A stretch of 16,973 nt of DNA, taken from a virus (lineage: Duplodnaviria; Heunggongvirae; Uroviricota; Caudoviricetes). Below the pieces are notes generated by a model. That model did no database searches and was not told the DNA's origin. It saw only the letters and a list, made by a program, of their open reading frames with translations. The stretch's first letter is position 1; each line of letters begins with the position of its first letter. Made by a program: the position numbers and the translations under genes. The stretch is from positions 1-16,973 of the IMG/VR virus record IMGVR_UViG_2529293240_000008; one strand, 5' to 3'. Shown here one piece after another: positions 368 to 8,217 of the stretch.

Positions 368-1150
368 CTTCAAAATGATGGACATTATTTTTGTGGAACC
401 GGAGGTAACAGACCAGACGGTTTAAATGAGCCGGTTACTTTAAACGGGTGATGGACAGCACCTCAAAAGTTCAGATGGATTATATTTGTCTGCAATACCC
501 CGGGTATTTTCGATTTGCGAAATGGATGGAACGACTTGCTCAGGGGATAGCTGATGGAGTTACTGAAGTACCGAAGGACCACTAAAAATCACAGGCCGGG
601 AATTTCGGCGTTTCCGGCGTAGGTGTGCCACGAATGCATCCAGTGGCGTGATGTTGGATGCAATGCTGTATGAGAGATGAGGGGCGGCGTCCAGACGCAG
701 CCTTCAAACCGCCTTGAGCTGCTGCCGTTAAGAGCGGTGGTGGTGAGCGTCAAGGTTAAAAGGCGCAGAACATGTGTCAGGTAGGTGTTGCGGAGATGAA
801 CGAAAGTGAACTGTCGATGAAGTGTCGAAAGGAACCTCTAGGCGATGTCGAAAATGTGCTATCTACGCAGCGCATGACGAGTCCAGCAGATATCTGGTAC
901 TGGCTGGGCGGCATCCGGCATATAGGCAGCATGAACGCAACACAGGCTCTCGTACGGAACGTGGGAACCTGTCGTCTCGATGCTAAGGGAGCGGCGCGGA
1001 GCAGAGGCACTGCAAGCGCCTGAGTACCGATGCGAGACACAGGGGCAGATGGCTTCGTAGTAGTGAGGAAGTGCCTGTAATGGGCATGGAGCGAAGGGGG
1101 TCAGTCGTTGGGGCTGGTTTATCGGTCAACCGGATAGCCGGGAGGAGCCC

Positions 1151-1440: not shown

Positions 1441-1460
1441 ACTTGAATGGTTCAACGACA

Positions 1461-1494
1461 AGAGCCGTATGACGCGAGAGTGTCACGTACGGTT
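1461..1494 (+). ncRNA. Group II intron domain V catalytic hairpin
   Basis: GAGCCGTATGACGCGAGAGTGTCACGTACGGTTC: 34 nt, 10-bp helix with AGC triad and G-U wobbles matching the domain V consensus GAGCCGUAUG...CGUACGGUUC. Confidence 0.6.
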
Positions 1495-1608
1495 CCGTGG
1501 GAGCGTAGGGGGGCGGTGCCCCTGCGCCACCCGATATCCCCTTTGAGTGCGGTTACGTCCACAGAGGTAAATGCCGCTGACGCGGCATCTGTAATCTGTT
1601 ACTTTGTG

Positions 1609-1672: not shown

Positions 1673-2412
<740 letters not shown>

Positions 2413-2466
2413 GGAGTAATGCCGATCAGTTAAGGATCAGTTGACCGATCCAGTGGCTGTGTAAGA

Positions 2467-2499
2467 ATCCGGAAACGCTCACTCGTTTCCGGATTTTTC
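2467..2499 (+). terminator. Rho-independent terminator downstream of the TA operon
   Basis: ATCCGGAAACG-CTCACT-CGTTTCCGGAT perfect 11-bp stem followed by TTTTT. Confidence 0.65.
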
Positions 2500-2584
2500 T
2501 GTGCACAGTAAAAGACCACCGCCTGAGGAGGTGGCTTTTCAGAATGCCCCCTATAAGGGCTGAGGGATCCCCACAAAATTACTG

Positions 2585-3317: not shown

Positions 3318-4136
3318 ATGTGTCAGGTATTTGGTGTATCCAGGAGCGGTTATTACAACTGGGTACAGCATGAACCCTCAGACAGAAAACAAAGTGATGA
3401 GCGGCTAAAACTGGAGATTAAGGTGGCACATATCCGCACTCGCGAAACATATGGAACCCGGCGGCTCCAGACGGAGCTGGCAGAGAATGGCATCATCGTT
3501 GGTCGTGACCGACTGGCACGTCTTCGTAAGGAGCTAAGGCTACGCTGTAAGCAGAAACGCAAGTTCAGAGCGACTACGAACCCGAACCACAATCTGCCAG
3601 TTGCGCCAAATCTGCTGAACCAGACGTTCGCTCCTACAGCACCAAATCAGGTCTGGGTGGCGGACCTGACGTATGTTGCCACACAGGAGGGATGGTTGTA
3701 CCTCGCTGGCATCAAAGATGTTTATACGTGCGAAATTGTCGGCTACGCCATGGGAGAGCGCATGACAAAAGAGCTGACAGGTAAAGCCCTGTTTATGGCG
3801 CTCAGGAGCCAGCGCCCACCTGCCGGGCTAATCCACCACTCTGATCGAGGTTCACAGTACTGCGCATACGATTACCGGGTCATACAGGAGCAGTCTGGTC
3901 TGAAAACATCAATGTCGCGTAAAGGTAACTGTTACGACAACGCTCCGATGGAAAGCTTCTGGGGAACGCTGAAAAATGAGAGCCTGAGCCACTATCGTTT
4001 TAATAACCGGGATGAAGCCATCTCAGTAATACGGGAATACATTGAGATTTTCTACAATCGTCAGCGTCGTCACTCTCGTCTGGGGAATATCTCCCCGGCA
4101 GCCTTCAGGGAAAAATATCATCAGATGGCTGCTTAA
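3318..4136 (+). CDS. IS3-family transposase OrfB (DDE catalytic domain), normally expressed as an OrfAB fusion by -1 frameshift
   Basis: Contains ...WVADLTYV...HHSDRGSQY...CYDNAPMESFWGTLK... (DDE integrase core). The frame is -1 relative to orfA and the true N-terminus is probably supplied by frameshifting near 3229-3235. Confidence 0.9.
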   Translation: MCQVFGVSRSGYYNWVQHEPSDRKQSDERLKLEIKVAHIRTRETYGTRRLQTELAENGIIVGRDRLARLRKELRLRCKQKRKFRATTNPNHNLPVAPNLLNQTFAPTAPNQVWVADLTYVATQEGWLYLAGIKDVYTCEIVGYAMGERMTKELTGKALFMALRSQRPPAGLIHHSDRGSQYCAYDYRVIQEQSGLKTSMSRKGNCYDNAPMESFWGTLKNESLSHYRFNNRDEAISVIREYIEIFYNRQRRHSRLGNISPAAFREKYHQMAA

Positions 4137-4247
4137 AAAAGAACAAATGGTAGTGTCCGCTATTGCCAGTACACCTCAATTGCCTTTACAACCTCCGGGA
4201 GAAGTTCCTGGTTTGTATAATCAAAGTTATCAACATGGAGAACAGTT

Positions 4248-4508
4248 ATGTTTTCGAACTTTTTCATGGCTTCCTCAGCTGACTTATATGTTCTGCTATA
4301 TAGCGAGTCTCAGAAGTGTTTTCATATTGAGACTGTTTCCGCAATGATTGATAAAAATGTTCGCATGTACCTTGAGGGGCGAAGCGGCGATTTTGTCACC
4401 ATTGGTATTGGTTCTTCCGTAGAAGAGCTTCGCGAGATAAGGAGCAAACTTGTTGAGATGCGTCATGGTGTTGCTGCTCCTCACTTTTTGGTTGCTCCGG
4501 AGGAGTAA
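4248..4508 (+). CDS. Hypothetical small protein (86 aa)
   Basis: ATG with GGAGA 7 nt upstream. Its 3' end overlaps the 3' end of the minus-strand HTH gene by about 110 bp, so one of the two may be partly spurious. Confidence 0.35.
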   Translation: MFSNFFMASSADLYVLLYSESQKCFHIETVSAMIDKNVRMYLEGRSGDFVTIGIGSSVEELREIRSKLVEMRHGVAAPHFLVAPEE

Positions 4509-5088: not shown

Positions 5089-5778
5089 CTAACCAAATCT
5101 GTTTATGTTGAATGGTACTGATGAGATCACTTTAGACTGGATATAAAGCAGAGCTAACCCCTCTTTTTCGATGCTCCATGGTTGATAATTGGGGTTATCA
5201 GATAACACCATGATTTTGCTTCCAATTTTTTGAAGCCTTTTCACGTAGCATTCTCCATCAAAACAAAATGCATAAATACCATCGCCATCAAAATAAGTTA
5301 CTGTCTTATCAAGAAAAAGAAGGTCACCAGGTGAGATTGTGGGAGCCATACTGTCTCCTCTGGCGTTACCTATTTCTATATTTTTGAATGCCCGATTTCC
5401 AACAAGACGTCGGGCATATTCAGGATCAAGTTCTATTGAGCGCACTACATCTATCAAGTCACCACGGACATGAGTTCCATCACCGCAACTAAACTCAACA
5501 TCAAGGACATTAAACACGACGCTATCTGTTCTTGTCTGGTGTTTCTCTTGCGAGGAAAAGGTTGGTGAGGAGTCTTCACCTAAGAACCAGGATTGTGGAT
5601 AACCGCTAATCTCTGATAAATGCGCGAGCTTATCACTCCGTGGAAATGTTTTTCCTGTTGTCCAGTACTGCACTGATTGCGCACTCACACCTAACTTGCG
5701 GGCCAGTTGAGCCTGAGTCCATCCTTTTGCTTTCAGCATCGCGGCTATTCGATTTTCCGTGTTTTTGACGTTCTTCAT
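5089..5778 (-). CDS. Phage CI-like repressor (N-terminal HTH, C-terminal S24/LexA-like autopeptidase domain)
   Basis: HTH ...WTQAQLARKLGVSAQSVQYW...; C-terminal GDSMAPTISPGDLLFLD (Ser nucleophile) and a downstream Lys (YVKRL). Likely ATG start at 5778 (MKNVKNT...), two codons inside the track ORF. Confidence 0.85.
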   Translation of the reverse strand: MKNVKNTENRIAAMLKAKGWTQAQLARKLGVSAQSVQYWTTGKTFPRSDKLAHLSEISGYPQSWFLGEDSSPTFSSQEKHQTRTDSVVFNVLDVEFSCGDGTHVRGDLIDVVRSIELDPEYARRLVGNRAFKNIEIGNARGDSMAPTISPGDLLFLDKTVTYFDGDGIYAFCFDGECYVKRLQKIGSKIMVLSDNPNYQPWSIEKEGLALLYIQSKVISSVPFNINRFG

Positions 5779-5911
5779 GACCAAATCCTGTGGGTTTCTT
5801 TACAAGGATAAATCTTTACTTGATTTTAGTGTATTCGATCCTTTTGCAACTTGCATGTTAATTTAAACTTGATGTATTCTTGATTTATAAAGTTAATGTT
5901 GGTGCTTTGTT
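5779..5911. promoter_or_regulatory. Divergent immunity promoter/operator region between the cI-like and cro-like genes
   Basis: 133-bp AT-rich spacer between divergent starts; three CTTGAT repeats (5819, 5868, 5880) and an imperfect palindrome TAAATC-N7-GATTTT (5809-5827). Individual promoter elements could not be assigned confidently. Confidence 0.5.
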
Positions 5912-6184
5912 ATGAAAGGAAATGATTACGACAAACTTCGTGCATTAATTGCGCAAAATGCCATAGCGCGAAATCTGGGTGTGACACCGCAAGCGGTGAA
6001 TCAGTGGTTTTCAAAAAGCACAATTCCTGCCCGTTTCGTTTTACGCGTATGTGAAGTAGTTGCATGGAAGGTCACGCCGCATGGCTTAAGGCCAGATCTT
6101 TATCCTCACCCTGAAGATGGAATTCCTGATTCGTTACGCAAAATTTCAAATCCAAGCTTAGCGCACACAGAGGATGAGAAGTGA
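5912..6184 (+). CDS. Cro-like small HTH regulator (YdaS-like)
   Basis: 90 aa; HTH ...IARNLGVTPQAVNQWFSK...; divergent from the cI-like gene. Confidence 0.7.
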   Translation: MKGNDYDKLRALIAQNAIARNLGVTPQAVNQWFSKSTIPARFVLRVCEVVAWKVTPHGLRPDLYPHPEDGIPDSLRKISNPSLAHTEDEK

Positions 6185-6221
6185 TGGTGGTGATATGAGC
6201 GAAAAAATAACTATTAAATAC

Positions 6222-6248
6222 GATGGGGCAACCATTTCGATTGCCCCA
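6222..6248. terminator. Candidate bidirectional hairpin terminator between convergent genes
   Basis: GGGGCAA-CCATTTCGA-TTGCCCC hairpin between the cro-like stop (6184) and the minus-strand gene stop (6255); flanking T-runs are weak. Confidence 0.3.
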
Positions 6249-6254
6249 ATCACA

Positions 6255-6548
6255 TTAGCGTTCGCTGAGAAGTTGTTGGTAAGCCTTAAAGGATGCGAAC
6301 TGCATTCTACCTTTGGCATTGAGTCCAATGCCTTCGCTTGTACACCAGGTGATGAACTCGGTTGTATCCGCTTCAACTTTAATAACTCGTTGCCCGCTTC
6401 TTTCGACACGCTTAATCAATTTTTCAGCGTCGTGTTTCCACTCGGTGTAACTGTCGGAGAGCACATCTGCATCAGTAAAAATCTTTTTGAACTCATGATA
6501 CTGAATAGCATCGCGAAACCAGAATAAACCAACGGCCTGAACTTTCAT
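6255..6548 (-). CDS. Hypothetical protein (97 aa), opposite-strand gene in the cII position
   Basis: Strong RBS (AAGGAGG, 6 nt before ATG) on the minus strand; charged, globular-looking composition. The overlapping plus-strand ORF 6174..6527 is codon-aligned antisense and Leu/Ser/Phe-rich, typical of a shadow ORF. Confidence 0.55.
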   Translation of the reverse strand: MKVQAVGLFWFRDAIQYHEFKKIFTDADVLSDSYTEWKHDAEKLIKRVERSGQRVIKVEADTTEFITWCTSEGIGLNAKGRMQFASFKAYQQLLSER

Positions 6549-6661
6549 GTCGAACCTCCTTTGGTTCTTTTGTTTATAGGGATCAAAAGGATAACTGAAG
6601 GATGGTTCGGCACCAACAAGTACGAATGTGCGGAATCTTAAAAGAATTTATCCGTAAGGAG

Positions 6662-7375
6662 ATGGCAGTGAACACCGCAATTTTTAACGACAAAGTATCC
6701 ATGACCAGCGTTGAAATCGCAGAGCTGGTTGGAAGTCAACACGGCAATGTCAGAATATCAATAGAGCGTCTGGCAAAACGCGGGGTGATTCAACTTCCTG
6801 CAATGCAAAAAGTTGAGAACGAACAATCATTTAGCCAAAACAAATTCACAAACGCATATATTTTCGAAGGCGAACAAGGCAAACGCGACAGCATCATTGT
6901 CGTCGCACAACTTTGCCCGGAATTCACTGCCCGCCTGGTAGATCGTTGGCGCGAACTGGAAGAGCAGGTGCGCAAACCAATGAGCGAAATCGAAATGGTT
7001 GCCGCGATGGCTCTTGAAGCCGTTCGTCAGCAAAAACGCCTCGACAAGATGGAAGAAAAAGTCAGTCACGTTACTGAAACTGTCGAACAAATCAAAAGAG
7101 GCACCATCCGCGATGGTTATGCAGGCTACCGTCAGCTGGTGGCGGAAACGGGTATGTCAGATGCGAAATGCCGCAATCTGGTGAACATCTATCAAATTCC
7201 AACTGATACTCACGAATTTCTTACTCCGGACGGATTGTTGTCACGCCGCGCAATTGTTGCAGTGGAACCGTTTATGGCTGCTTTCCATCGTATGATGAGC
7301 GAAGCGGAACCGAGAGGAACTCGTTGGTATCACCCGAAAATGGGGCTGTTCCAGGCGCTGGGCTGGCAGGGGTGA
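6662..7375 (+). CDS. Rha/AntA-family phage regulatory (antirepressor-like) protein
   Basis: N-terminal ...TSVEIAELVGSQHGNVRISIERLAK... matches the Rha/AntA N-domain pattern. Start is uncertain (ATG 6662, GTG 6668 or ATG 6602); AAGGAG at 6656-6661 fits the GTG best. Confidence 0.7.
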   Translation: MAVNTAIFNDKVSMTSVEIAELVGSQHGNVRISIERLAKRGVIQLPAMQKVENEQSFSQNKFTNAYIFEGEQGKRDSIIVVAQLCPEFTARLVDRWRELEEQVRKPMSEIEMVAAMALEAVRQQKRLDKMEEKVSHVTETVEQIKRGTIRDGYAGYRQLVAETGMSDAKCRNLVNIYQIPTDTHEFLTPDGLLSRRAIVAVEPFMAAFHRMMSEAEPRGTRWYHPKMGLFQALGWQG

Positions 7376-7394
7376 CGATGTTTACGGGTAATTT

Positions 7395-7568
7395 ATGCAA
7401 GTCCTCAATCGCTGGTTCCGTGACGGAAGGGGGCGTCGTGTTCACGTTATACGCTGGGAGCCTGAAACACAGCGGGTTATTTATCTGCGTGATGGTTATC
7501 CATATGAATGTTTCAGCCCGTTGTGGTTGTTCAGGCGTGATTTTGTTGAGTGCGAAGCGCCGCCATAA
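7395..7568 (+). CDS. Candidate small ORF (57 aa, Arg/Trp-rich)
   Basis: ATG at 7395 to TAA at 7566-7568 (MQVLNRWFRDGRGRRVHVIRWEPETQRVIYLRDGYPYECFSPLWLFRRDFVECEAPP); no clear RBS; below the ORF-track size cutoff. Confidence 0.2.
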   Translation: MQVLNRWFRDGRGRRVHVIRWEPETQRVIYLRDGYPYECFSPLWLFRRDFVECEAPP

Positions 7569-7589
7569 TAACGGCGCGATAATGGAAAT

Positions 7590-7898
7590 TTACACGAAGC
7601 GGATCTGGAGTTTTTTCCCTGTTGCGCGTGCAAATTTTTTCAGTGTGGCAAATGATGGTCCGCTGACACCTGAGGCAAGATTGCTTTCCATTCTGGTGAT
7701 GGCGGTTGCTTTGGTACCCATGCGTTCAGCAACTTCAGCCTGGGTGAGACCAGCTTCTTTGCGTGCGGCCAGCATTTCATCAAGCAGTGCGAACTCGTCG
7801 GCGATGGCGTCGTATTCTGCTTTAAAAGCCGGGTCATCCATCCATTTAGCTGCCATTTCATCGTGTGTCATGATTGGTGGGTTACGTTTACCAGTCAT
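7590..7898 (-). CDS. HigA-like antitoxin (XRE-type HTH)
   Basis: 102 aa; ...AGLTQAEVAERMGTKATAITRMESN... HTH; GGAGG RBS 7 nt upstream; start overlaps the stop of the upstream toxin gene by 11 bp. Confidence 0.75.
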   Translation of the reverse strand: MTGKRNPPIMTHDEMAAKWMDDPAFKAEYDAIADEFALLDEMLAARKEAGLTQAEVAERMGTKATAITRMESNLASGVSGPSFATLKKFARATGKKLQIRFV

Positions 7899-8217
7899 GC
7901 TTAACCTCCTTCATTCTGGTTTCAGCTTTTTTACGCTCAGCTGGTGGAGTTTTTTGAGTTTTCTTGATGAAGCTGTGCAGCATGATGATGCGCTTCCCTG
8001 TCAGTGTGCAGTAAAAAACGCGGGCAATGCCATCGCTGCCTTTAATCCGAAGCTCAAAAAGCCCATCACCAAAGGCGCTGGTGTGAGGTTCTCCGAGATT
8101 GCTGCCGTATACCTTCATGCGTTCAACAAGATGCTGGTATCTGGCACGCATACTCAATGGAAGCTGATCGACCTCCAGTCGGACCTCTTCACTGTAGTAT
8201 TCGATAGTGTAGTTCAT
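7888..8217 (-). CDS. HigB/RelE-superfamily toxin (Gp49-like addiction-module killer protein)
   Basis: ...LGEPHTSAFGDGLFELRIKGSDGIARVFYCTLTGKRIIMLHSFIKKTQKTP... is the characteristic HigB/Gp49 pattern. Toxin-first order typical of higBA. Start is uncertain: the track extends to 8253 with a TTG; Met at 8217 gives 109 aa. Confidence 0.75.
   Translation of the reverse strand: MNYTIEYYSEEVRLEVDQLPLSMRARYQHLVERMKVYGSNLGEPHTSAFGDGLFELRIKGSDGIARVFYCTLTGKRIIMLHSFIKKTQKTPPAERKKAETRMKEVKHDW

What the first reader, a model, noticed from the sequence alone, without database searches (positions are those of the whole stretch)
6255..6548. Opposite-strand 97-aa gene with a strong RBS in the cII position
A minus-strand ORF with a canonical AAGGAGG Shine-Dalgarno, its own hairpin downstream (6222-6248) and a charged, protein-like composition lies between cro-like and Rha-like genes that are both on the plus strand. 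I do not recognise the product (MKVQAVGLFWFRDAIQYHEFKKIFTDADVLSDSYTEWKHDAEKLIKRVERSGQRVIKVEADTTEFITWCTSEGIGLNAKGRMQFASFKAYQQLLSER). An independently transcribed single gene in a known variable slot of lambdoid genomes is the typical footprint of a lysogenic-conversion or defence/anti-defence gene.
Basis: partly seen in the sequence, partly recalled or inferred. Interest (0 to 1): 0.5.

Follow-up and report, generated by a model that had tools for sequence, protein, structure and literature searches.

The report
Swappable prophage accessory gene beside cro
This is a real, conserved 97-residue gene of unknown function that sits as a self-contained, exchangeable cassette facing the cro gene of a lambda-like prophage; it belongs to a large protein family that no curated database describes, but its kind (a prophage accessory gene, or "moron") is ordinary.

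Summary
ORF 6255-6548 (-) is a real gene: dN/dS is 0.05-0.2 in relatives, the SD is strong, and a conserved hairpin terminator follows it. The overlapping plus-strand ORF 6174-6527 is an antisense shadow with dN/dS about 1.

RefSeq already calls the gene a hypothetical protein (WP_000867908.1), and it matches PHROG 4753 (unknown function) over its full length. There is no Pfam, NCBIfam, PADLOC or PDB sequence match. An exhaustive profile search finds at least 1,125 clusters of roughly 100-residue relatives, in phages and in chromosomes.

The slot is a cassette site. Related prophages with the same cro have nothing there. Others keep the identical upstream region and start codon but carry a BssS-family gene with its own terminator. 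Distant relatives (about 30-45% identity) also lie convergent with cro-like genes beside S24 repressors.

Best reading: an accessory gene transcribed against pR and so probably expressed in the lysogen. The defence or anti-defence function has no direct support, and the biochemical function remains unknown.

The parts
6255..6548 (-). 97-residue coding gene (WP_000867908.1, hypothetical protein; PHROG 4753). The product is a soluble 11.4-kDa alpha/beta protein with pI about 7.9.
   Evidence: Translation. PGAP annotation. phrog_4753 at E 1e-48, full length. dN/dS 0.05-0.2. AF2 pLDDT 93.6 with beta-alpha-alpha-beta-alpha-alpha topology. pI.
6555..6561 (-). Shine-Dalgarno sequence AAGGAGG, six bases upstream of the ATG.
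   Evidence: Read from the sequence. GGAG and the TTCGACATGAA context are invariant in 9 relatives.
6588..6616 (-). Candidate promoter for the gene (inferred): -35 TTGGTG 6616-6611, 17-nt spacer, -10 TATCCT 6593-6588. It is a weak match to consensus.
   Evidence: TTGGTGCCGAACC and the xATxxT columns are conserved in an otherwise diverged intergenic region. The same region precedes the alternative BssS-family cargo. The consensus scan at 9/12 did not call it.
6224..6248 (-). Intrinsic-terminator-like hairpin ending the leftward transcript before it enters cro. The T-rich tail runs to about 6200.
   Evidence: Terminator scan. Fold of -25.1 kcal/mol, z -3.85. Stem conserved with pair-preserving changes.
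6174..6527 (+). Antisense shadow ORF (117 codons), not a gene.
   Evidence: dN/dS 0.8-1.2 and a stop in L036. No family hit. Ends at the only TTA codon of the real gene.
5912..6184 (+). Cro-like (YdaS family) gene, convergent with the 97-residue gene. Left boundary of the cassette slot.
   Evidence: PF15943 at 1.2e-12 and phrog_35. Mosaic breakpoints at 6152 and 6185.
6662..7375 (+). Rha-family regulator, divergent from the 97-residue gene. Right boundary of the slot.
   Evidence: PF09669. PGAP annotation. Mosaic breakpoint at 6546.
5089..5784 (-). CI-like repressor (HTH plus peptidase S24), on the same strand as the 97-residue gene.
   Evidence: PF00717 at 4e-17 and PF01381.

Best explanation
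The feature is an autonomous accessory cassette (a 'moron') placed directly after cro in a lambdoid prophage and pointing against the early rightward (pR) operon. It consists of a weak conserved promoter, a strong SD, a 97-codon ORF and an intrinsic terminator.

Shown:
- The ORF is a real gene under purifying selection.
- The cassette, ORF plus terminator, is exchangeable and dispensable for the immunity switch.
- The product is a soluble single-domain alpha/beta protein of a very large uncharacterised family.

Inferred:
- The gene lies on the cI strand and converges on pR transcription. It is therefore probably expressed when pR is repressed, in the lysogen, and damped by transcriptional interference and antisense RNA after induction.
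- The terminator keeps its transcript from running antisense into cro.
- The protein has no enzymatic, membrane or DNA-binding signature, and its only structural neighbour is a regulator with an oligomerisation domain. It most likely acts by binding a host or phage protein or a small ligand, changing the physiology of the lysogen. This would parallel the BssS-family cargo that replaces it in sister prophages.

The molecular target is unknown.
For: - Real gene: codon-position variation 45/22/82 and dN/dS 0.05-0.2. Full-length phrog_4753 match. 1,125 representative clusters at E<=1e-3.
- Cassette structure: SD and ATG. Conserved terminator. Conserved promoter-like block.
- Exchangeability:
  - STEC309 has the same cro followed directly by plus-strand genes.
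  - Strain cq9 has the same upstream region, SD and ATG but a BssS-family ORF (PF13991, 1.3e-15) with its own terminator.
  - Breakpoints fall at 6546 and 6152/6185.
  - Identical protein sits beside a different cI/cro pair (L039).
  - Premature stops occur in two viral contigs.
  - The gene is present in only 75 of 5,426 complete E. coli genomes.
- Recurrent placement beside the switch in distant lineages: Klebsiella prophages and L036, L054, L055, L062, L068, next to S24 repressors and Cro-like genes.
- Soluble domain: AF2 pLDDT 93.6. Near-neutral pI. No Pfam, NCBIfam or PADLOC hit.
Against: - No expression data exist. The promoter is only a 7/12 match, and the consensus scan found no promoter here.
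- G+C of the gene (43.9%) does not differ from cI and cro, so composition does not mark it as foreign.
- Placement next to cro recurs in phages that share only 30-45% identity. This could instead mean a role in the switch itself.
- Nothing identifies a target or phenotype.
Confidence: 0.6

Rival explanations
1. The protein is a modulator of the lysis-lysogeny switch. In this reading it is a stand-alone oligomerisation-type domain that binds an HTH regulator (Cro, CI, Rha or a CII-like protein). Alternatively its convergent transcription tunes pR read-through. Either way the position next to cro would be functional rather than incidental.
For: - The convergent-with-cro, same-strand-as-cI placement recurs in at least five lineages at 30-60% identity, with different Cro and repressor families.
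Against: - The same cro and repressor work without it, and it can be swapped for a BssS-family gene.
- Identical protein occurs with different cI/cro pairs.
- Many relatives are solitary chromosomal genes with no phage context.
- hhalign against YdiL/Aca2 gives probability 0.3.
- Foldseek rates the 2ox6 match only at E 0.72.
Confidence: 0.17
2. It is a prophage-encoded defence or superinfection-exclusion protein, or an anti-defence protein.
For: Lysogen-oriented single genes near the repressor are often exclusion or defence genes. This is established for rexAB, sieB and bstA, and is discussed in PMC7067206. The slot is variable.
Against: - No PADLOC match.
- No membrane segment, nuclease, ATPase or other effector domain.
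- The sister cargo in the same slot is a BssS-family gene, not a defence gene.
- Orientation against the early operon argues against an early anti-defence role.
- Chromosomal relatives lie among redox and metal stress genes, not in defence islands.
Confidence: 0.15
3. It is a stress-related small protein that uses its invariant cysteine, for example in thiol, redox or metal sensing or buffering. The prophage copy would then give the lysogen a stress-tolerance trait.
For: - Cys69 (97% of family members) sits in a W-C motif, together with invariant Asp26 and near-invariant Trp37 and Arg81.
- Five chromosomal contexts of the 101-residue clade lie next to stress or redox genes:
  - rubrerythrin/ferritin and flavin reductase
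  - OYE and glyoxalase
  - HMA and flavodoxin
  - Fur, catalase-peroxidase, ArsR and TehB-like genes
  - ferredoxin genes
Against: - The sample is small and comes from one clade, in anaerobes where such genes are common.
- No conserved operon partner exists.
- The phage EKP1 homologue keeps this Cys but has lost Trp10 and Trp68, so these conserved aromatics are not universal.
- There is no known redox fold match.
Confidence: 0.08

Closest known systems
Phage 'morons' / lysogen-expressed accessory cassettes (lambda rexAB, bor, lom; the class discussed in PMC7067206)
   Same: A single ORF with its own terminator and putative promoter, lying between genes that are adjacent in sister prophages. 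It is oriented against the lytic operon, is present or absent among relatives, and is replaceable by other cargo.
   Different: Expression in the lysogen is not shown. G+C is not distinct from the neighbouring immunity genes. The same family recurs at this position in very distant phages.
PHROG 4753 (phage protein family of unknown function)
   Same: Full-length match, residues 1-97 on profile positions 1-97, E 1e-48.
   Different: The PHROG carries no function. The family found here is far broader, with at least 1,125 clusters at 50% identity, chromosomal members and tandem two- and three-domain proteins.
SO3848 of Shewanella oneidensis (PDB 2ox6), an Aca2/YdiL-like HTH regulator
BssS-family prophage genes (PF13991)
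   Same: They occupy exactly the same slot, strand, upstream region, SD and start codon in sister prophages, and have their own terminator.
   Different: The sequence is unrelated. The resemblance is positional only.
Lambda CII / 186 CII (CP76)
   Same: Neighbourhood only: the first slot after cro.
   Different: The strand is opposite and there is no sequence match. In L036 a CP76-like gene coexists with the homologue.

Membership tests
Phage moron (autonomous accessory cassette) | Lies between two genes that are adjacent in related phages, with presence or absence varying among relatives | tested here: met
   STEC309 has the same cro with no opposite-strand gene. Strain cq9 has a different cargo in the same slot. 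Breakpoints fall at the cassette ends. Present in 75 of 5,426 E. coli genomes.
Phage moron (autonomous accessory cassette) | Own transcription terminator | tested here: met
   Hairpin 6248-6224 plus a T-rich tail, conserved with pair-preserving changes. This is sequence-level evidence only.
Phage moron (autonomous accessory cassette) | Own promoter | tested here: inconclusive
   Conserved TTGGTG-17-TATCCT block, also shared with the BssS-family cargo. It is a weak consensus match and was not called by the scan.
Phage moron (autonomous accessory cassette) | Expressed from the repressed prophage | not testable with these tools
   Needs strand-specific RNA-seq or a reporter in a lysogen.
Phage moron (autonomous accessory cassette) | Base composition distinct from its neighbours | tested here: not met
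   G+C is 43.9%, against 42.5% for cI and 45.1% for cro.
PHROG 4753 | Full-length significant match to the family profile | tested here: met
   E 1e-48, 164 bits, residues 1-97 on profile 1-97.
Aca2 / YdiL / SO3848-like regulators | [quoted passage not shown] | tested here: not met
   No HTH family at E<=1. The protein has 97 residues against 116-166.
Aca2 / YdiL / SO3848-like regulators | Detectable sequence or profile similarity | tested here: not met
   hhalign probability 0.3. The PDB profile search does not list 2ox6, 1s4k or 7b5j.
Aca2 / YdiL / SO3848-like regulators | Fold similarity to a family member | tested here: met
Known anti-phage defence systems (PADLOC-DB 2.0) | Match to any defence protein model | tested here: not met
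   No families at E<=1.
Lambda-type CII / CP76 activators | Sequence match, and co-orientation with cro in the pR operon | tested here: not met
   No Pfam match, and the gene is on the opposite strand.
RNase H-like / RuvC nucleases | Five-stranded mixed sheet with catalytic carboxylates | tested here: not met

The most novel reading that the evidence does not exclude
The 97-residue protein may represent a large, undescribed family of stand-alone 'regulator-tail' domains related to the non-HTH half of SO3848/Aca2-type repressors. In temperate phages, members would be stationed convergently beside cro to act on the lysis-lysogeny decision, for example by sequestering or heterodimerising with an HTH regulator. 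A related possibility is that they sense a redox or small-molecule signal through the invariant Asp/Trp/Cys/Arg set and couple host state to prophage behaviour.
Probability: 0.1. Interest if true: 0.7.

Novelty: new member of a known kind. Interest (0 to 1): 0.33.

Why it matters
The result settles which of two overlapping ORFs is the gene, and at least one deposited phage genome annotates the wrong strand. It defines a precise cassette site next to cro, with a shared upstream region and interchangeable cargo. That site is a handy place to look for lysogen-expressed genes in enterobacterial prophages.

It also flags a family of over a thousand sequence clusters that has a confident fold but no Pfam entry and no known function. 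The family is a reasonable target for a deletion or over-expression screen. By itself the finding does not change any concept of phage biology.

Tried and rejected
- Pfam, NCBIfam and PADLOC scans of the protein gave nothing, as did Pfam on 105 distant relatives.
- PDB sequence and profile searches gave nothing significant.
- The first AlphaFold run, on 15 close homologues, was poor (pLDDT 62.6). A deeper 86-sequence alignment fixed this.
- The afdb50 fold library was unavailable.
- BFVD gave only two uncharacterised phage proteins.
- I tried to link the family to Aca2/YdiL by profile comparison and rejected the link. The SO3848 sequence could not be obtained, because YdiL does not retrieve 2ox6 by sequence. 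The aligned region of 2ox6 is therefore inferred from the published topology only.
- Long or fused relatives showed no informative extra domains.
- Single distant proteins found no viral loci, and the broad alignment was too diverse for pattern search.
- Literature searches for the accession and the PHROG id found nothing.
- GiPD474, the Gifsy defence protein, was checked and rejected because it is an ATPase-domain protein.
- The plus-strand ORF 6174-6527 was rejected as a gene.
- A GGATAAAT motif shared between the cI-cro region and the region upstream of Rha was not pursued. In relatives that stretch is coding sequence of the rightward gene.
- The 77-79-residue ORFs upstream of two distant homologues are Ala-rich helical proteins with no family match and no counterpart here.

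Full report

- The start is ATG 6548-6546. AAGGAGG lies at 6561-6555, six bases upstream.
- Downstream, an 11-pair hairpin (6248-6224, 6 G-C pairs) is followed by a T-rich tail and was called as terminator-like.
- The hairpin region folds at -25.1 kcal/mol, z = -3.85 against shuffles.

In a 17-kb window with 119 ORFs of at least 40 codons, length alone means little, so I tested coding by comparison. Nine homologous loci at 59-95% protein identity were compared with the window.
- Variable columns fall 45/22/82 on codon positions 1/2/3 of the minus frame.
- Pairwise dN/dS is 0.05-0.2 wherever dS is measurable.
It also has a stop in one relative.

That plus ORF is the familiar antisense shadow. 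Stops in that frame require TTA, CTA or TCA in the real gene. The gene has a single TTA and no CTA or TCA, and the shadow ORF ends exactly at that TTA.

**2. What databases already know**

- NCBI's pipeline annotates the gene as hypothetical protein WP_000867908.1 in E. coli.
- It is present in 75 of 5,426 complete E. coli genomes and is always called 'hypothetical protein'.
- Cluster members from Escherichia, Shigella, Salmonella and Klebsiella carry no other name.
- It matches PHROG 4753 (unknown function) end to end at E 1e-48.
- Pfam, NCBIfam and PADLOC give nothing.
- Sequence searches of the PDB give nothing significant.
- Literature searches for the accession and the PHROG id found nothing.

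**3. The family**

A profile search of 1.84 billion representative proteins found 1,125 clusters at E<=1e-3, of which 96 reach 1e-10.
- Nearly all are single-domain proteins of 90-115 residues.
- A few carry two or three tandem copies joined by coiled-coil-like linkers. These have no other recognisable domain.
- The signature is G7, W10, Y17, D26 (invariant), Y34, W37, G52, F65, W68-C69, R81, F84-A85.
- None of 105 diverse members matches a Pfam family.
- The proteins are near-neutral and soluble. The window protein has pI 7.9, and the family median is 5.9.

**4. Structure**

- With only close homologues the AlphaFold model was poor (pLDDT 62.6).
- With 86 diverse sequences it is confident (pLDDT 93.6, pTM 0.84). 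The topology is strand 5-9, helix 14-23, helix 34-50, strand 54-58, helix 62-72, helix 78-96.
- Foldseek ranks 2ox6 first as well, but weakly (E 0.72, TM 0.55).

SO3848 is described in PMC8434428 as a structural homologue of the anti-CRISPR-associated repressor Aca2 and of YdiL. It has an N-terminal HTH and a C-terminal part with two parallel strands, an extra helix and two additional C-terminal helices. That part serves dimerisation in Aca2. The published topology reads like the model here, so the 97-residue protein plausibly corresponds to the non-HTH part of SO3848.

I could not see the residue alignment, so this correspondence is an inference. At sequence level there is no link. YdiL retrieves Aca2 but not 2ox6, and hhalign of the family against YdiL/Aca2 gives probability 0.3. 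The relationship is therefore fold resemblance to one protein, not family membership.

**5. Genomic anatomy: a cassette**

In every close relative the gene lies between a Cro-like gene and the next rightward gene. It is convergent with cro and on the strand of the S24 repressor. The same holds in Klebsiella prophages with different repressor, cro and replication genes.

Megablast of 5800-6700 against complete E. coli genomes shows sharp mosaic classes:
- **(a) Full match.**
- **(b) Match from 6152 rightwards.** A different cro is followed by the same gene and Rha.
- **(c) Match up to 6185 only.** The same cro is followed by something else.
- **(d) Match from 6546 rightwards.** The gene itself is replaced.

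An example of class (c) is STEC309, where cro is followed directly by plus-strand genes with no opposite-strand gene.

An example of class (d) is strain cq9. The upstream block, the SD and the ATG are the same, but the ORF is an 83-residue BssS-family gene (PF13991, 1.3e-15) with its own hairpin and T-run. Homology resumes at the end of cro.

Further points bear on dispensability:
- The identical protein also occurs beside a different cI/cro pair (L039).
- Two viral contigs carry premature stops in the gene.

The unit 'ORF plus terminator' is therefore an exchangeable, dispensable cargo behind a shared upstream region.

In that region the block TTGGTGCCGAACC and an xATxxT hexamer 17 bases downstream are conserved while surrounding bases diverge. 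This fits a weak sigma-70 promoter: -35 at 6616-6611 and -10 at 6593-6588. It is only a 7/12 match, and the consensus scan did not call it. The terminator stem is conserved with pair-preserving substitutions. On the plus strand it lacks a T-run, so it should stop leftward but not rightward transcripts.

**6. Distant relatives**

- Homologues of about 30-45% identity in unrelated phage contigs are again found beside the switch.
  - In L055, L062 and L068 the gene is followed by a convergent small cro-like gene and then a divergent S24 repressor.
  - In L036 a CP76-type CII-like gene and a YdaS-type Cro lie between it and the repressor.
- Other phage copies sit elsewhere, for example next to an integrase or a terminase.
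- The 101-residue clade from anaerobe metagenomes is chromosomal and monocistronic, with no conserved partner.
  - Its neighbours are often redox or metal stress genes. They include rubrerythrin, flavin reductase, flavodoxin, HMA, Fur with catalase-peroxidase, ArsR, TehB-like, glyoxalase and OYE genes.
  - This is a weak lead from five contexts.

**7. Explanation**

The best-supported reading (about 0.6) is a prophage accessory cassette. Because it points against pR and lies on the cI strand, it is expected to be expressed when pR is shut, and to be damped by convergent transcription after induction. Its terminator protects cro from antisense read-through. These expression statements are inferences from geometry.

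The protein lacks any enzymatic, membrane or DNA-binding signature and resembles an oligomerisation-type domain. A binding role, to a protein or a small ligand, that alters lysogen physiology is the most economical guess. The BssS-family alternative cargo points the same way.

The rivals are:
- **A switch modulator (about 0.17).** The recurrent cro-proximal placement and the SO3848 resemblance favour it. Dispensability and the chromosomal relatives count against it.
- **A defence or anti-defence protein (about 0.15).**
- **A cysteine-based stress protein (about 0.08).**

**8. Novelty and verdict**

The gene is already catalogued as hypothetical, and its kind is well known. Three things are new here:
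- resolution of the two overlapping ORFs;
- the exact cassette boundaries and the alternative cargo;
- recognition that the product belongs to a very large family with a confident fold and no curated description.

Interest is modest, at about 0.33. The most novel reading still open is a new class of stand-alone regulator-tail domains acting on the lysis-lysogeny switch. I give it a probability of about 0.1.

Noticed in passing
L053 (Elizabethkingia phage EKP1, OM284015.1) 4001-4279 (+) versus annotated CDS 4064-4396 (-): The deposited record annotates the antisense shadow ORF ('hypothetical protein 21'). The 92-residue family homologue on the other strand, which keeps the D, W, G, F..FC and R..FA motifs, is left unannotated.
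   Followed up: partly
window 8293-8481 and 8949-9137 (+): Two tandem copies of an isrK sRNA plus C4 antisense RNA pair (Rfam, 62-80 bits). Each lies inside or at the start of repeated Ash/Rha-family ORFs (7324-8898, 8895-9755). This points to a duplicated P1/P4-type antisense immunity or antirepressor-control module.
   Followed up: no
window 669-782 and 1460-1535 (+): Group II intron RNA domains (RF01999 at 81.8 bits, RF00029 at 57.8 bits) lie only about 870 nt apart, with no reverse-transcriptase-sized ORF between them. This suggests an ORF-less or degraded intron next to an IS66 fragment (18-335).
   Followed up: no
window 14279-14589 (+): A tight cluster of four tRNA genes (Met-CAT, Arg-TCT, Thr-TGT, Gly-TCC) lies downstream of the replication genes. 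It is followed by a DUF6538 protein and an IS3 element.
   Followed up: partly
L071 (E. coli cq9) 2252-2503 (-): A BssS-family gene occupies the same cro-Rha slot, using the same upstream region, SD and start codon as the 97-residue gene. The slot therefore behaves like an expression site with interchangeable cargo.
   Followed up: yes
L054 4692-4931 and L055 4766-4999 (+): In two distant phage contexts the family gene is directly preceded by a co-oriented 77-79-residue Ala-rich helical ORF with no family match. This may be a two-gene module, and it is absent from the window.
   Followed up: partly
L049-L052, L073-L076 (chromosomal 101-residue clade): Non-phage relatives are monocistronic and sit among redox, metal and electrophile stress genes: rubrerythrin, flavodoxin, Fur with KatG, ArsR, TehB-like, glyoxalase and OYE. 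The family also has a near-invariant cysteine.
   Followed up: partly
window 6552-6577 (+): A short plus-strand hairpin (GAACCTCCTTTGGTTC) followed by a T-run overlaps the SD of the minus-strand gene. It could act as a weak terminator or pause for pR transcripts, but it is not conserved in relatives.
   Followed up: partly
P0021, P0026, P0039 (metagenomic proteins): These family members carry two or three tandem copies of the domain, separated by coiled-coil-like linkers and a repeated LPAGAN...AL..AA..G segment.
   Followed up: partly
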